A stretch of 64,000 nt of DNA, taken from NCBI GenBank assembly GCA_963825135.1, contig CAWGRW010000009.1:128001-192000 (forward strand), written 5' to 3'. Position numbers: made by a program. Position 1 is the stretch's first letter; every line of letters starts with the position of its first letter. Source of the DNA: an uncultured bacterium (lineage in GTDB: Bacteria > Desulfobacterota_D > UBA1144 > Nemesobacterales > UBA2774). Positions 30,001 through 39,000 of this stretch are shown piece after piece.

Positions 30001-33000
30001 GAGCGAGTCCGTGACGAGCCTCGTCGCGGTCTCTCCCAGTATCTCCTTCCTGTACACGGATTCGATAACGTTAACGGGCGCCTTCCCGGGGCGGAACCCC
30101 TTTATTTTGGCGTTCTTCTTGATCTCGGAGAAGACTATATCCCTCTTCTCCCTCACCACCTCGACGGGGATTACGACGTCCACCTTCCTCTCCGTACCGC
30201 TCAAATTCTCTATGTTCACCTTCATGTCTCTCTACCTCTCGGAATGTCCGATAATTTATGCAGTATTTTTAAGCCCTTATCCCCTGCGTAAAAAGCTTGT
30301 AATTATACATGACAATATTTATTGTGAACAATTTTTCAAGTCGGAATAGATATGATGCGGGAATGCGGCAAATAGATTCGGGCGGGGGGGGTGATCGGGT
30401 CATCTCTTTCCTCTCACGGAGGGGAAGCCCGGATACAGGTCAATCCCGTTCAGCCTGAGCAGGAGCCTGCCCCGAGCAGTGAGCCCGTCGAGCTATCGAA
30501 GGGCGGCTATCCCCGCTTCATCCTCTTCGCAGGAGCGGCTTCCAGCCGCGATACTTCGCTTCTCACACACTCTCCACAAAATCCGGAGAGCCCCCTACCC
30601 CGCCTGGCCCAGGAACCTGAGCCATCTGTAATGGGAGATGAGCCCGGAGAAGAAGCCTTTGTAGGCATAATAGGTAACGCTGTATTCCCTGCACGTCTCC
30701 TCGACAATGCGGGAGAGCGCGGGATAGTTTACGTGGCATATCTTGGGGAACAGGTGGTGCTCCACCTGGTAGTTGAGCCCGCCCAGGTACCACGTCAGGA
30801 AATGGTTGTCCTTGCCGAAGTCCGTGGTGGTGCTCAGCTGATGCACCATCCAGCTCGTGTCCATCTGCTGCGTTTCCCCCGAGTGCATGGGGAACCCCGC
30901 GTCCTCGTTGCAGTGGGCCAGCTGGAACACGACCGACATTATGAGCCCCTGCAGGAACGCGACCAGCATGTAGAACACGATTACGTAGAGGACCGGATAG
31001 AAGAAGAGCGGTATCACGAAAGCCATGGTGAGGAAGAATATCTTCCCCGAGAAAAAAATTACCGCGTCCCACCCCGCGGGTCGGTCTATCTCGTGCCCGT
31101 TGATCTTGTTCGTAAAAAAGGTGTAGAAGTCGTCGAACAGGTGCCACTTGATCGCGAGGAACCCGTACAGGGGCCATATATACAAGTGCTGGTAGCGGTG
31201 AAAGAAATACCTTTTATGATGGGGGCTCAGGCGCGCGAAGATACCCGCCTCTATGTCGTCGTCGTGCCCCGCTATGTTGGGATAGGAATGGTGGAAGTAG
31301 TTGTGCTTCCTGTACCAGAAATACGAGCTCCCCCCGATGAGGTCGAGGAAGTGTCCCATCAGCTTGTTCACCCACGGGCGCTCGGAATATGCCCCGTGGA
31401 GCGCGTCGTGCATCACATTGAAGGAGAGCGCGTTTAACGCGACGCCCAGGGATACGGCGGCGAGTATCAGGCCCCAGACCGGGAGTCCCGCGAATACCAG
31501 GAGTGAATACGAAGCCGCCACCCACAGAACAGCGATAAGCGTCTTGAGATACATCCGGGCGTTGTCCTTCTTCGATACGGCGTTCTCCTCGAAGTAAACC
31601 GAAACCCGTTTCTTGAGCTCCTTCTCGAACTCCGTGTTCGGGGTAAAGCGTATCTTCGTGTTCGCGATGGAGTTATTGTCCGCTGAAGTGTTGAGCTGAG
31701 CCATAGTATGATTAGACAGGCAGTGATCCGCGTTCGGCAGTATCGAATACGACTCCGCAACCGATAATAACTGAAGCCTCAAGTGTCCGAGCCGGCACTA
31801 CGTTAAATCCCGACATTCGGCGCATTCGGTAATTCAAATACGGCAATCAACCGGACCTGTCAAATTCCCCTTTTCTAACCCTGCAATTTTTCACTCTCGA
31901 GCCTGTATATCAACGATTAGATCCGGATGAGTGGTTGAAGGGCAAATTTATTAGGCGGATAGTATAACATTTTCACCGCCGAGTACAACGGGTGCACACA
32001 CGTTGTGTGATCTTGCGATCTCTCCGAACTTTAATAATTCGTCCGTGTCCGCGTGCCTCCGCTCAGGCGGCGCCGGTTCTCCCATGGAAAGAAGCAGCTC
32101 CCGGAGTACGCATAAGGAAATCAATGACTTAGGAAGAATTGGTGCGAGAGGGGGGAGTCGAACCCCCACACGGTTAGGTACAGGAGCCTAAGTCCTGCGC
32201 GTCTGCCAGTTCCGCCACTCTCGCATATGGTGGGCTGTGAGGGAATCGAACCCACGGCCCGATGATTAAGAGTCATCTGCTCTGCCAGACTGAGCTAACA
32301 GCCCACACCACAATCAAGAGTACTTAGAATACCTTAAATCAAGATAAATTTGGAGTACGCCGGCAGAGGGCCGGCCTACTTAAATATATACAGAGAGAGT
32401 CTATTATAACGACCTTATTCTCAAAATCAACGTTTTATATTCTGTAATTATGACTTTGCGGTAAATACAAGTCTTCATTGAGCAGGATATCCGTTATTTT
32501 GTTCGGATTCCGTAATTACCATCATCATACAGGGGTCAGATGAGCCTCTATTATTCGTCTCACCTCTTCAGGGCTCTCGGACAAAAGCACGTCCTTCTGC
32601 CACTGAGTGTCCCGGCACATCCGGGCGAGCATCCCCAGGACTTCGACATGGCTCGTCGGCTGCTCGGCGGGCGACAGCATCAGAAACATTATCTTCGCGA
32701 CCCTTCCGGTATCCTTGTCCCTTATTCCGGACTTGCCGACTCCGAGCGCGATCACCGGACTGGTTATTCCATCTATACGGGCGTGCGGCATCAGAATCTC
32801 CTCTCCCGCGAACGTGCCCCCTTGCCTCTCCCGCTCCATGAGAGCAGCCCAGGCCGAATCCTTTATCTTGGGGAAATCGCCGCAGCAGGCGCCTAAAAGC
32901 TCTTTCATCGCATCCTCCTTATCGATGGGCTTCTTCCATACGGCGACTTTAATGTCGGAAAGCGGAGACTCGGGAATAACCGGGATAACCTCCTTATCCC

Positions 33001-36000: not shown

Positions 36001-39000
36001 CTTGGCCAGCACGTTGGCCGAGAGCGCCCTGTCCATTCCCGCAAGCCCGATCGCGGCCAACAGAGCGCCGATCGTCGTCGGTATCAGGCATACGAGCAGC
36101 GCGACGAGAGTGGGGATCGGAATCACGACGCCGAAATATTTACCAATCGGATAGAGCGCTCCCGTCACCATAAGGAAGGCAAGAGTCAGCCCGGCAAGAG
36201 TCACCGTAAGCGCAAGCTCGTTCGGAGTCTTCTGGCGCACAGCGCCCTCCACGAGCGCTATCATGCGGTCGAGGAACGATTCGCCAGCGCCCGCGGTGAT
36301 GCGCACCTTTATGAAGTCCGACAGGACGCGAGTGCCGCCTGTAACTCCCGAGCGGTCGCCGCCGGCTTCCCTCACTACGGGAGCGGATTCTCCCGTGATG
36401 GCGGATTCGTCCACGCTGGCGACGCCCTCTATCACCTCGCCGTCGTTCGGTATGACTTCCCCGACCGACACGTACACGATGTCCCCTTGCCTGAGCTCAT
36501 CCGAGCTCACCTCTTCCGTACGCCCGTTCACGATCCTCCGCGCAAGCGTCTTCCGCCTCGTCTTCTTCAGCGTATCAGCCTGCGCCTTCCCCCTCGCCTC
36601 TGCGAGAGCCTCTGCGAAGTTCGCGAAGAGAACGGTCAGCCAGAGTATCAATGTCACCCATAGGGTGTAGAAAACGGCTTTGCTGCCGCTGGAGATATTC
36701 ATAACCAGCACGAGAGTGGTCACAGCCGCCCCTATCTCGGTCACGAACATTACAGGGTTACGAGCCATCGTGACGGGATTCAGCATTAAAAAGGACTTTT
36801 TCACCGCAGCCGCCACAAGCTCACTTTCGAATAGGGAGGCCTTGCGGACCTTCCTTCTCTCGAGCTTTGCTAGTTCATTTACGTGTTGTGTATCAGTCAT
36901 AGTTTCAGTTCCTCTCTTATTACTGTAAGGTGTCTCACGATTTACTTATACATAGCCGCCGACGTGACTTGCTCGTTAATAGGCCCGAGCACCGCGACCG
37001 GCATGAACAAAAGCGCCCCGATCAGGATAACGGTCCCGAGGATCACGAATCCGAATAAAAGAGTATCAGTTCGCAGCGTACCCGTAGTCTCGGGTGACGG
37101 TTTCTTCACGGCAAGAGACCCCGCTATAGCGAGCGGCAGTACTATCGGTATGAACCGCGCGAAGAGCATGACGAGGCCCGTCGCGACGTTCCAGGGTATA
37201 GTACCGTCTCCCAGTCCCTCGAACCCGGAGCCGTTGTTCGCGGCGGCAGAGCTGAACTCATACAAAATCTCCGAGAAGCCGTGAGCGCCGGGATTGAGAA
37301 CCGTCGCAGCACCCCACGCGGTCGCGGAGAAAAGAGCCGCGCCGAGGAGGATAAAGAAAGGATGTGCGAGCAGAGCGAGAAGCGCGAGCTTCATCTCCCT
37401 CGTCTCCACCTTCTTCGTGAGGTATTCGGGCGTCCTCCCCACCATCATACCGCATATGAATACGCCTACAATGATATAGATGAACATGTTGATGAACCCG
37501 ACGCCTACGCCTCCGAAGGTCACGTTCAGCCACATGCCCGTGAGCGGGACAAGCCCGGTGAGGGGGTTAAGGCTGTCGTGCATCGCGTCGACGGAGCCGT
37601 TGCTCGTAGCCGTCGTCATCGTAGCCCAGAGGGGCCCCGCAGTGGTGCCGAAACGGAGCTCCTTACCCTCGAGGTTCATCGAATGCTCGACCGGGAGTCC
37701 CGTAAAGGCCGCAGTCGGGGCGCTCTCGAAATAGACAGCCAGACTGACGGTGCCGATGAGGATCGCCGCCATTGCCGCAAAAATCACGGCCGCGTGACGG
37801 ATCCTCCTGGTTATCCTGCCGAACATCCAGACAGAGGACATCGCTATAAGCACTATGCTGACGCATTCGACTATGTTGGTGAAAAATGTCGGGTTCTCGA
37901 AAGGATGAGCCGAGTTCGGACCGAACCAGCCTCCGCCGTTCGTCCCAATCTGCTTGATGGCGGCGAACGCCGCCACCGGGCCCCGAGCGATCGTCTGCGC
38001 AACGCCTTCGAGCGTTTCCGCAGCCGCAGCGCCGTGGAAGGTCATCGGTGTGCCGCCCAATACCAGGAGCGCCGCTACGACTACCGCAATCGGCAGAAGA
38101 ACGAGCAACGTGGCGTTAAGTAAGTCTTTGTAGAAGTTCCCGAGCTTCGGTTTTCCCGAAAGCCCCCTCGAAAGCGCCGCGAGCGCCGCGATGCCTGTCG
38201 CGGCGGAGACGAACTGGAGCCACATGAGTGCGAAGAGCTGCGAGAGATAGCTCATCGAGACCTCGCCCGAATAATGCTGGAGGTTCGTGTTCGTCGTGAA
38301 AGAAGCCGCGGTATTGAATATGGTGCTAGGCTCGAGCGCTCCCTTTGCGTCCGGGTTTAAGGGCAGGTACTGCTGAGCCGCCATGATCGCAAATACGACC
38401 ACGAACATCACAGCATTGAACAGCAACAAAGAAAGCGAGTACCGCTTCCAGTCCTGCTCCTTATCGATAAAGCCCCCGCAGACATTCCGGAATAGCTTTG
38501 TGAAGCGCCCCCTCCACCCTTTTTCAGGGTCGCGCGGGTCCATAGACCACGTCATGGCCTTTCCCAAAGGCCATGAAAGAAGGGCGGGAATCGCCAGAAC
38601 AATAATTATAAACAGCAGTGACATATCGTATCTCCTCTAAAAGCGCTCAGGATCAATAATCGCGTAAACCAGGTAAAAAAAACAGAAAATCAGAACAATC
38701 GACGCTATCCACAGCATTTGAGCCTCCTATATTTTTTCCAAAAAGACCGTCATTATTCCCAGCAGGATAAAAACTATCAAGCCAAGAGCCAGCATTATAA
38801 ACATCAGCATTTTCTTATGCCTCCTCAAGCGTGGTGAATTCGTAATTCAGTTAAATGCCGTTCCATCGGCAGCGTGAACTCGAACGAGGAACCTTTCCCC
38901 CGTTCACTTTTCACGCCGACGACCCCCCCGTGCGCCTCTACTATCTCCTTCACTATCGCCAGACCGAGGCCCACTCCCGACTTCTCGTCCTGCCCGGGAA

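What a model noticed while it worked through the whole genome (the two positions that open the first line are those of the whole stretch)
32525..38624. Regulatory PTS wired covalently into K+ homeostasis: KdpD serine-kinase module fused to EIIA(Ntr) (g00209) and a CPA2 an [...]
The last gene of the kdpABC operon, g00209 (559 aa), has the N-terminal KdpD P-loop domain plus Usp-like region but no membrane or histidine-kinase part; it ends in a PTS EIIA type-2 (PtsN-like) domain with the phosphorylatable His, and a second EIIA-2 domain is fused to the CPA2 antiporter g02004 (C9:2076508-2078217), in a genome whose PTS has no sugar permease. I read g00209 as a PTS(Ntr)-gated form of the atypical serine kinase that switches off KdpFABC by phosphorylating KdpB, so that PTS phosphorylation state acts within one polypeptide on K+ uptake and efflux. 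New would be a covalent 'Rosetta stone' form of the PtsN-KdpD partnership, aimed at the post-translational arm of Kdp control. [...]
Evidence so far: g00209: KdpD 1e-94 (24-233), PTS_EIIA_2 5e-17 (428-553); best Swiss-Prot hits the 370-aa Synechocystis KdpD and residues 11-353 of E. coli KdpD; g02004: Na_H_Exchanger 1e-57 + PTS_EIIA_2 2e-25. Walker A/B present; PHAR/PHAK His motif in both fused domains as in free PtsN g01890; PTS inventory has EI(Ntr), EI, HPr, HprK, PtsN, EIIA-Man, no EIIB/C. KdpB g00211 has ITGESAPV. The best 120 homologue clusters (65-97% id, 540-597 aa) all hold PF02702+PF00359, named 'PTS sugar transporter subunit IIA' or 'KdpD', mostly Thermodesulfobacteriota/Dadabacteria MAGs. 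The preprint defining the KdpD serine kinase (10.1101/2023.11.09.566405, passages) has no 'EIIA' or 'PTS'; search for KdpD + EIIANtr + fused [...]
(Added by a program. Inside this text positions count along the whole contig: contig position 128,001 is position 1 of the stretch shown here. "Call 12" and the like, gene names such as g00115 and contig names such as C1 are that model's own, and its searches are not shown. The text may have been shortened before it was handed on; [...] marks where a part breaks off. The agent that wrote the report below was given it as the finding of a first reader that could run no searches.)

Follow-up and report, generated by a model that had tools for sequence, protein, structure and literature searches.

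The report
Short KdpD kinase fused to PtsN-like domain
The last gene of a potassium-pump operon encodes a soluble KdpD-type serine-kinase module joined to a PtsN-like phosphotransferase domain, a real, widespread but apparently unstudied fusion that probably lets the cell's nutrient-signalling phosphorelay tune the pump directly.

Summary
Observation confirmed. On the minus strand lie kdpF, kdpA, kdpB, kdpC and a 559-aa soluble protein made of a KdpD N-terminal P-loop domain, a Usp domain and a PtsN-like EIIA domain.

- **Fusion is not an artefact.** All 120 best homologue clusters carry it, as do 16 of 80 species genomes from at least seven phyla. These form one clade.
- **Key residues are conserved in 48 fused sequences.** Kinase Walker A and Walker B Asp are invariant (Walker B Glu 47 of 48). 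The EIIA His474 is invariant.
- **PTS donors exist.** EI-Ntr, EI, HPr and HprK are present, and no permease was found.
- **AF2 packs EIIA against Usp.** The two-domain construct gave pTM 0.79.
A sigma-54 promoter, a HAMP kinase and an NtrC-type regulator sit upstream. This wiring is known from Desulfovibrio vulgaris.

The gating mechanism is inferred, not shown. No paper on the fusion was found in ten searches. This scan noted the same fusion before in another genome (e1-4517169). Verdict: new variant of a known kind, interest moderate.

The parts
40839..42197 (-). NtrC-type sigma-54-dependent response regulator (452 aa from ATG 42197; the listed ORF starts at TTG 42305)
   Evidence: Pfam Response_reg, Sigma54_activat 2.4e-63, AAA_lid_14, HTH_8. 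Start read from sequence. Syntenic with the kinase and kdp genes in many loci.
40768..40812 (-). Two TTGCA-N3-TGCAA-type palindromes (TTGCATAATGCAA at 40800-40812; TTGGGTATTGCAA at 40768-40780), the likely activator binding sites
   Evidence: Read from sequence. The script found exact palindromes of this type in 8 of 12 regulator-kinase gaps viewed. Near-matches were seen by eye in 3 more.
40699..40714 (-). Sigma-54 -24/-12 promoter-like element GGGTACgactcTTGCA
   Evidence: 9 of 11 consensus positions. An element with at least 9 of 11 lies in the same gap in 12 of 23 loci, and at least 10 of 11 in 7 of 23. Background is 0.06 and 0.009 per kb per strand over 2.71 Mb.
38825..40678 (-). Sensor histidine kinase (4HB_MCP-like periplasmic part, HAMP, HisKA, HATPase_c); probable start ATG 40678
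   Evidence: Pfam. The start is inferred because homologue alignments begin at residue 16-21 of the listed ORF and the promoter element overlaps its TTG start.
38727..38810 (-). 27-aa single-helix hydrophobic peptide with no family, preceded by GGAGG
   Evidence: Sequence. No Pfam hit. Similar peptides precede kdpF in L012-L016, L018, L019 and L026.
38637..38717 (-). kdpF (26 aa)
   Evidence: Pfam Potass_KdpF, 23.0 bits against a cut-off of 21.2.
36942..38624 (-). kdpA
   Evidence: Pfam KdpA 9.4e-212; TIGR00680 592.7 bits against a cut-off of 387.7.
34825..36900 (-). kdpB (P-type ATPase; TGES Ser in [13 protein letters not shown])
   Evidence: TIGR01497 985.5 bits against a cut-off of 527.9. 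Motifs read in the translation.
34226..34813 (-). kdpC
   Evidence: Pfam KdpC 1.7e-60; NF001454 184.7 bits against a cut-off of 178.
33506..34135 (-). g00209 residues 24-233: KdpD N-terminal P-loop (atypical Ser kinase) domain. Walker A G37-T41 lies at 34082-34096; Walker B is D112/E113.
   Evidence: Pfam 6.4e-94. PDB 2r8r 5.7e-67. Foldseek 2.8e-22. Residue conservation.
33119..33451 (-). g00209 residues 252-362: Usp domain with motif R268xxxR272-X8-W281YALY285
   Evidence: Pfam 2.7e-5. Foldseek 7ji4, TM 0.84 normalised to the target. Motif alignment.
32537..32950 (-). g00209 residues 419-556: PtsN-like EIIA domain. His474 is the codon at 32783-32785. A low-confidence linker (383-411) precedes it.
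   Evidence: Pfam 2.2e-16. The five best-scoring PDB hits for this part are PtsN/EIIA-Ntr chains. Foldseek ranks 3-8 are PtsN. H474 is in 48 of 48 sequences. AF2 pLDDT 85-95.
32140..32304 (-). tRNA-Lys(ctt) and tRNA-Leu(tag), which mark the downstream end of the operon
   Evidence: ARAGORN. Rfam tRNA 66 and 55 bits.

Best explanation
The locus is a Kdp high-affinity K+ pump with two control layers.

(1) Transcription. An NtrC-type response regulator and a HAMP histidine kinase drive a sigma-54 promoter that precedes kinase - 27-aa peptide - kdpF - kdpA - kdpB - kdpC - g00209.

(2) Post-translation. g00209 is a soluble 'short KdpD'. Its N-terminal P-loop domain acts as the atypical Ser kinase that phosphorylates the TGES serine of KdpB and stalls the pump.

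Its C-terminal PtsN-like EIIA domain is tethered by a flexible linker and packed on the Usp domain. I propose that it receives a phosphoryl group on His474 from HPr, which is charged by EI-Ntr or EI. Its phosphorylation state would then set the kinase's activity through the Usp hub.

By analogy with E. coli, I guess that the unphosphorylated form keeps the brake off and the phosphorylated form applies it.

Shown: anatomy, conservation, synteny, promoter elements. Inferred: kinase activity, His phosphorylation, coupling and its direction.
For: Domain calls and operon.

Kinase residues named in Silberberg et al. (sections 6 and 7 read) are conserved in 48 fused sequences:
- Walker A GVGKT 48 of 48.
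- D112 48 of 48 and E113 47 of 48.
- R193 48 of 48.
- Aromatic Y42 47 of 48.

A short KdpD/Usp protein of D. geothermalis phosphorylates KdpB in vitro.

EIIA evidence:
- R458, E459, T464, P473 and H474 are in 48 of 48 sequences.
- The best PDB relatives are PtsN.
- HPr was found in 16 of 16 other fused-form genomes.
- The own genome has GAF-EI, EI, HPr and HprK.

AF2 of Usp-linker-EIIA gave pTM 0.79 and pLDDT 84.6 with only the linker disordered. That is higher than two free domains should give.

The fusion is one clade with SH-aLRT 99. It has been kept in at least seven phyla and in at least 11 full-length clusters at 50% identity.

No other KdpD or DUF4118 is in the genome.

Sigma-54 arm. 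The D. vulgaris precedent is.
Against: - There is no biochemistry on any member.
- Full-length AF2 gave pTM 0.41 with no confident placement of the kinase domain relative to Usp-EIIA.
- I could not see model coordinates, so I do not know whether His474 lies at the interface. No control fold was possible.
- Four short forms nested in the fused clade lost the EIIA domain. The two loci checked of these four (L012, L027) have no separate EIIA gene nearby, so the domain is dispensable.
- HPr is equally present in genomes with unfused forms (17 of 18), so its presence does not discriminate.
[quoted passage not shown] The genome has five DAC-domain hits. c-di-AMP may therefore remain the main input.
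- The papers read here describe E. coli PtsN as stimulating KdpD's kinase activity toward KdpE. That is not evidence for action on the Ser kinase.
Confidence: 0.45

Rival explanations
1. The EIIA domain acts mainly on transcription. As free PtsN does with KdpD in E. coli, it binds the operon's own histidine kinase (or the regulator) and modulates sigma-54-dependent kdp expression. The KdpD-Usp part would serve as the cytoplasmic sensor half of a 'split KdpD'.
For: Short KdpD genes are tightly syntenic with the kinase-regulator pair across phyla. Rajeev et al. read DVU3336 plus DVU3335 as a split kinase. In E. coli, dephospho-PtsN binds KdpD and stimulates its kinase activity (passages).
Against: The kinase has its own periplasmic four-helix-bundle and HAMP sensor. 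The Ser-kinase catalytic residues are invariant or nearly so, which argues for catalysis rather than scaffolding. AF2 packs EIIA on Usp in cis. The binding test could not be run. The two readings are not exclusive.
Confidence: 0.2
2. c-di-AMP through the Usp domain remains the real input, as in D. geothermalis. The EIIA domain would be a minor or structural add-on, for example for dimerisation or localisation, that is not phosphorylated.
For: Five DAC-domain hits in the genome, one of them in the window. The Usp fold matches the c-di-AMP-bound KdpD USP 7ji4. S258 and Y285 are kept. EIIA was lost twice without replacement.
Against: His474 and the R-E...T motif are invariant in 48 of 48 sequences, down to 47% identity to the query. 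That is hard to explain without phosphotransfer. The Usp motif also fits the E. coli type RXXXR-X8-WXAVY, which Moscoso et al. contrast with the c-di-AMP-binding type.
Confidence: 0.15
3. The fused EIIA domains (KdpD-EIIA, CPA2-EIIA) work as phosphoryl sinks. They would compete with free PtsN for HPr~P and so tune PtsN's other targets, rather than regulating their own polypeptide.
For: 14-15 of 16 fused-form genomes also keep a small free EIIA_2 protein. There is one HPr for three EIIA domains here.
Against: This does not explain why this EIIA subtype was found only on KdpD proteins (35 of 35 hits), nor the predicted fixed Usp-EIIA packing.
Confidence: 0.05

Closest known systems
Short KdpD (KdpD+Usp domains only) of Deinococcus geothermalis, and the N-terminal atypical Ser kinase of E. 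coli KdpD (Silberberg et al. 2024, PMC11018627; preprint sections 6-7 read)
   Same: KdpD P-loop domain with Walker A/B and the adenine-contact residues, followed by Usp. There is no histidine-kinase part and the gene lies in the kdp operon. The expected target is the TGES serine of KdpB.
   Different: It carries a C-terminal PtsN-like EIIA domain. [quoted passage not shown] The D. geothermalis protein is stimulated by c-di-AMP; the input here is unknown.
Free EIIA-Ntr (PtsN) regulating K+ transport in trans in E. coli: KdpD, TrkA, YcgO (passages; abstracts PMC11808508, PMC13445646)
   Same: A PtsN-type EIIA fold with the phosphorylatable His, linked to K+ uptake (Kdp) and, through the CPA2-EIIA protein elsewhere in the genome, to cation/proton antiport.
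   Different: Here the link is covalent rather than a protein-protein encounter. The partner is the HK-less Ser-kinase/Usp module, not the histidine-kinase activity. The domain fails the PtsN equivalog score (40.6 against 138.7 bits). It is only 22% identical to the genome's own PtsN.
Desulfovibrio vulgaris Hildenborough kdp locus DVU3334-DVU3339.1 (Rajeev 2011, PMC3333781; Kazakov 2015, PMC4641369; passages and Tables S5, S7)
   Same: A sigma-54-dependent response regulator, a non-KdpD histidine kinase, a KdpD-sensor/Usp protein and kdpFABC in one locus, with the regulator controlling the operon.
   Different: The gene order differs: the regulator and kinase are upstream here and downstream there. 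The candidate activator site is TTGCA-N3-TGCAA here, against CGTTACATTTTGTAACG there. DVU3336 is described with sensor and Usp domains only, and I did not check its sequence.
S. aureus KdpD Usp domain binding c-di-AMP (Moscoso 2015, PMC4686210; PDB 7ji4)
   Same: A Usp domain of KdpD as the docking point for a regulatory input. The fold match has TM 0.84 normalised to the target.
   Different: The motif here is RxxxR-X8-WYALY (E. coli type), with Ser and Tyr kept but no SXS...FTAXY. The predicted input is a tethered protein domain.
EIIA(Mtl)-like domains fused to PRD-type transcription activators such as MtlR/LicR
   Same: A covalently attached EIIA type-2 domain used as a PTS-phosphorylated regulatory module of a non-transport protein.
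   Different: Those regulate transcription factors of sugar operons. Here the host is a Ser kinase of an ion pump, in an organism in which no PTS permease was found.

Membership tests
KdpD N-terminal atypical Ser kinase (ASK) domain | Pfam KdpD (PF02702) domain over its full length | tested here: met
   Residues 24-233 match profile 1-210 of 210, 6.4e-94. PDB 2r8r 5.7e-67.
KdpD N-terminal atypical Ser kinase (ASK) domain | Walker A, Walker B Asp-Glu, and the aromatic/Arg adenine contacts (EcKdpD W39/R190, D109/E110) | tested here: met
   GVGKT 37-41, D112/E113, Y42 and R193. Conservation in 48 sequences is 48, 48/47, 47 and 48. The mapping to E. coli numbers uses a constant offset of 3 and the paper's text, not a direct alignment to E. 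coli.
KdpD N-terminal atypical Ser kinase (ASK) domain | Phosphorylates the TGES serine of KdpB | not testable with these tools
   KdpB has ITGESAPV, but TGES is general to P-type ATPases.
KdpD-like non-kinase potassium sensor (NCBIfam NF038185) | Score over the curated cut-off of 550 bits | tested here: not met
   368.2 bits, covering model positions 7-370 of 373. The N-terminal two-thirds align end to end but below the cut-off.
EIIA-Ntr / PtsN | EIIA type-2 fold with the phosphorylatable His in a P-H-[AG]-[RK] context | tested here: met
   PF00359 2.2e-16. PHAR 473-476 aligns with PHGR of PtsN 3urr. H474 is in 48 of 48 sequences. Foldseek TM 0.73-0.79 (normalised to the target) to PtsN structures.
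EIIA-Ntr / PtsN | Equivalog score (TIGR01419 cut-off 138.7 bits), and a stand-alone protein of about 150-160 aa in the rpoN cluster | tested here: not met
   40.6 bits, and the domain is fused. The genome's true PtsN (153 aa) lies in rpoN-hpf-ptsN-hprK-rapZ.
EIIA-Ntr / PtsN | Phosphorylated by NPr/HPr~P | not testable with these tools
   Donors are present. There is no assay.
Canonical KdpD/KdpE two-component system | KdpD with DUF4118 membrane part, GAF, HisKA and HATPase_c | tested here: not met
   None of these are in g00209. There is one PF02702 and no PF13493 in the 94%-complete genome. KdpE was not searched for.
Sigma-54-dependent Kdp regulon of the D. vulgaris DVU3334 type | Adjacent sigma-54 activator and histidine kinase, a -24/-12 promoter, and a short KdpD/Usp gene in the operon | tested here: met
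   The element here matches 9 of 11 positions. Relatives reach 10 of 11 in 7 of 23 gaps.
Sigma-54-dependent Kdp regulon of the D. vulgaris DVU3334 type | Same activator binding motif (CGTTACATTTTGTAACG) | tested here: not met
   The gap holds TTGCA-N3-TGCAA-type palindromes instead.

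The most novel reading that the evidence does not exclude
The phosphorylation state of a single histidine (His474) in a tethered PtsN-like domain directly switches the KdpD-type Ser kinase that brakes KdpFABC, acting through the Usp domain. Carbon/nitrogen status read by EI-Ntr and HprK would then control K+ pumping post-translationally within one polypeptide. Together with the EIIA fusions to a CPA2 antiporter here and to other transporters elsewhere, this would make the 'regulatory PTS' a general hard-wired controller of ion transport in bacteria that lack PTS sugar uptake.
Probability: 0.35. Interest if true: 0.7.

Novelty: new variant of a known kind. Interest (0 to 1): 0.55.

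Why it matters
Two recent strands of K+ biology meet in one protein. One is the discovery that KdpD's N-terminal domain is a Ser kinase that switches the pump off. The other is the long-known but mechanistically vague link between PtsN and K+ homeostasis.

The open question for short KdpD proteins is what tells them the K+ or metabolic state. c-di-AMP is one answer. This family suggests a second, PTS-borne answer.

It also offers a soluble, single-chain system in which the effect of EIIA phosphorylation on a defined enzymatic output can be measured. Because D. geothermalis KdpD phosphorylates E. coli KdpB, a cross-species assay looks feasible.

If the coupling holds, it would be direct evidence that the regulatory PTS acts on the post-translational arm of Kdp control.

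Tried and rejected
- **EIIA replaces c-di-AMP because the genome lacks a cyclase.** Rejected: there are five DAC-domain hits.
- **Usp motif differs between fused and unfused forms.** Rejected: it is the same in both, and ambiguous between the two published types.
- **The short forms inside the fused clade have a split-off EIIA gene.** Not found downstream in L012 or L027, the two of the four loci checked.
- **A riboswitch controls the operon.** No Rfam match other than two tRNAs in 28000-44000 at E up to 0.1.
- **The operon is an island flanked by tRNA-derived repeats.** No such repeats in 31800-44000.
- **Exact TGGCAC-N5-TTGC before kdpA.** There is none. The only exact match in the window is at 46693. 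The promoter lies before the kinase gene instead.
- **Complex prediction** (kinase+Usp against EIIA) was not available.
- **The search for related loci with the EIIA-only alignment** failed for lack of a conserved stretch.
- **Full-length AF2** gave no confident overall arrangement (pTM 0.41).
- **Barabote and Saier's PTS review** could not be read under the recalled id PMC1306802. A mention of such fusions there cannot be excluded.
- **Literature.** Ten full-text searches found no description of the fusion.

Full report
**Observation.** The minus strand of 32525-38717 holds five genes:
- kdpF (26 aa; Pfam KdpF 23 bits against a cut-off of 21.2).
- kdpA, kdpB and kdpC, which all pass NCBIfam equivalog cut-offs.
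- g00209, 21 bases after kdpC (559 aa).

Pfam finds three domains in g00209: KdpD 24-233 (6.4e-94), Usp 252-362 (2.7e-5) and PTS_EIIA_2 428-553 (2.2e-16). It finds no membrane, GAF or histidine-kinase part. Two tRNA genes follow the gene, so it ends the operon.
- Three EIIA_2 domains: free PtsN of 153 aa in an rpoN-hpf-ptsN-hprK-rapZ cluster, a 569-aa Na_H_Exchanger-EIIA protein, and g00209.
- GAF-EI of 767 aa, EI of 586 aa next to HPr, and EIIA-Man.
- No PF02378 or PF03609 permease. Other EIIC families were not tested, and the genome is 94% complete.

**The fusion is real and old.**
- All of the best 120 of 8000 scored homologue clusters carry PF02702+PF00359.
- Among the 80 best of 596 relatives in species-representative genomes, 16 have the fused form by Pfam. 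By record title these are Lentisphaeria, Cloacimonadota, Nitrospirales, Aminicenantes, Acidobacteriota/Thermoanaerobaculia, a Leptospira, Dadabacteria, Syntrophaceae, Smithella and other 'delta proteobacteria'.
- I built a tree of the kinase+Usp part with 77 rows. L033, L044, L070 and L074 were dropped as truncated or broken. All 17 fused forms fall in one clade (SH-aLRT 99) together with four short forms. This fits one gain and two losses.
- The two loci checked of those four (L012, L027) have no separate EIIA gene downstream.
- A profile search of 1.84 billion representatives found at least 11 full-length fused clusters at 50% identity among the best 150. It also found other kinase-less architectures: a tandem KdpD-Usp pair, and KdpD-Usp-DUF4118(-GAF).
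- In the organism's own phylum, 11 of 120 genomes have any KdpD hit and 8 have the fused form. The module is therefore accessory and patchy.

**Both halves look functional.** In 48 fused sequences, whose identity to the query goes down to 47%, the key positions are as follows:
- Walker A GVGKT: 48 of 48.
- D112: 48 of 48. E113: 47 of 48.
- R193: 48 of 48. Y42: 47 of 48.
- EIIA residues R458, E459, T464, P473 and H474: 48 of 48.

The kinase residues correspond, by a constant offset of 3, to those that Silberberg et al. showed to be needed for KdpB-Ser162 phosphorylation (sections read). The EIIA part's five best-scoring PDB hits are PtsN/EIIA-Ntr structures. In Foldseek these structures precede EIIA-Mtl. 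The domain nevertheless fails the PtsN equivalog score. It is 34% identical to the EIIA of the genome's CPA2 protein and 22% to its free PtsN. A search with the EIIA part alone found only KdpD fusions (35 of 35 hits at E up to 1e-5). HPr occurs in 16 of 16 other fused-form genomes, but also in 17 of 18 unfused ones. 14-15 of 16 fused-form genomes also keep a small free EIIA.

**Structure.** Full-length AF2 with 48 sequences gave good domains but pTM 0.41 and a disordered linker at 383-411. The natural Usp-linker-EIIA stretch with 17 sequences gave pLDDT 84.6 and pTM 0.79, with only the linker below 50. For two domains of about 140 residues this implies a confidently fixed mutual arrangement. 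I read it as EIIA packing on Usp. Usp is already the known regulatory hub of KdpD: it binds c-di-AMP in S. aureus and confers c-di-AMP stimulation in D. geothermalis.

- *A sigma-54 two-component system lies upstream.* A histidine kinase (4HB/HAMP/HisKA/HATPase) and an NtrC-type sigma-54 activator lie upstream on the same strand. The order regulator - kinase - kdpFABC - short KdpD recurs across phyla.
- *A -24/-12 element sits between regulator and kinase.* Here it is GGGTACgactcTTGCA (9 of 11 positions). At least 9 of 11 occurs in 12 of 23 gaps and at least 10 of 11 in 7 of 23. Background is 0.06 and 0.009 per kb.
- *Paired palindromes precede it.* They are of the TTGCA-N3-TGCAA type. The script found exact ones in 8 of 12 gaps, and I saw near-matches by eye in 3 more.
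- *The wiring is already published for D. vulgaris.* DVU3334 binds its own kdp operon, which includes the KdpD-sensor/Usp protein DVU3336. The binding motif and gene order differ from those here.
- *c-di-AMP cannot be excluded as an input.* The genome has five DAC-domain hits. The Usp motif fits the E. coli type but keeps the Ser and Tyr needed in S. aureus.

**Mechanism.**
- Best reading (0.45): a Ser-kinase brake on KdpB whose activity is set in cis, through Usp, by PTS phosphorylation of His474.
- Direction, by analogy only: in E. coli the dephospho form of PtsN favours Kdp expression and K+ retention (passages and abstracts). The dephospho form here would therefore keep the brake off.
- Rivals: action on the operon's kinase (0.2), c-di-AMP as the real input with EIIA accessory (0.15), and a phosphoryl sink (0.05).

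**Novelty.** Ten full-text searches found no description of the fusion. [quoted passage not shown] Subscription reviews could not be read. Databases already annotate these proteins as 'PTS sugar transporter subunit IIA' or 'KdpD'. This scan noted the same fusion in an Aminicenantes genome, and EIIA fusions to other transporters. Those are unchecked AI notes and do not count as evidence. I class the finding as a new variant of a known kind.

Noticed in passing
window 38727-38810 (-): A 27-aa single-helix peptide with its own GGAGG lies between the kinase gene and kdpF. It has no Pfam family. Similar peptides (ending ...ER[IL] or similar) precede kdpF in L012-L016, L018, L019 and L026. It may be an unannotated extra small Kdp subunit.
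   Followed up: partly
window 22412-23590 (-): A 392-aa protein with a DACNK sensor domain plus a diadenylate-cyclase domain. The genome has five DAC-domain hits in all, which is unusually many for 3.1 Mb.
   Followed up: partly
window 42391-42406 (+), ORF 42436-43173 (+): A sigma-54-like element AGGCACgccccTTGCA (1 mismatch) lies about 30 bases before a hemerythrin-domain ORF that diverges from the kdp regulator gene. It may be a second target of the same or another activator.
   Followed up: no
G000:C9:2076508-2078217 (L002 1474-3183, -): A CPA2 Na_H_Exchanger with a C-terminal EIIA domain (PHAR motif). Its EIIA is closer to that of g00209 (34% over 103 aa) than either is to free PtsN. Comparable long EIIA frames occur in only some of the other fused-form genomes.
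   Followed up: partly
proteins P0138, P0143, P0163: Proteins of about 750 aa with two tandem KdpD-Usp units and no kinase half. This is another kinase-less KdpD architecture that I did not find discussed.
   Followed up: no
L074 3130-4766: In one MAG the fused gene appears in pieces: KdpD part 3139-3600, Usp 3822-4241, EIIA 4362-4766, with a first ORF of only 170 aa. This is a frameshift or an assembly error.
   Followed up: no
window 24565-30225 (-): A tig-clpP-clpX-lon housekeeping cluster lies downstream of a fatty-acid desaturase gene (30595-31782). This is ordinary context.
   Followed up: no
model m3c9f53c2a4c0: The EIIA fold also matches the cytoplasmic regulatory domains of SLC4 anion exchangers (Band 3, AE2, NDCBE). 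This is another case of the fold attached to ion transporters.
   Followed up: no
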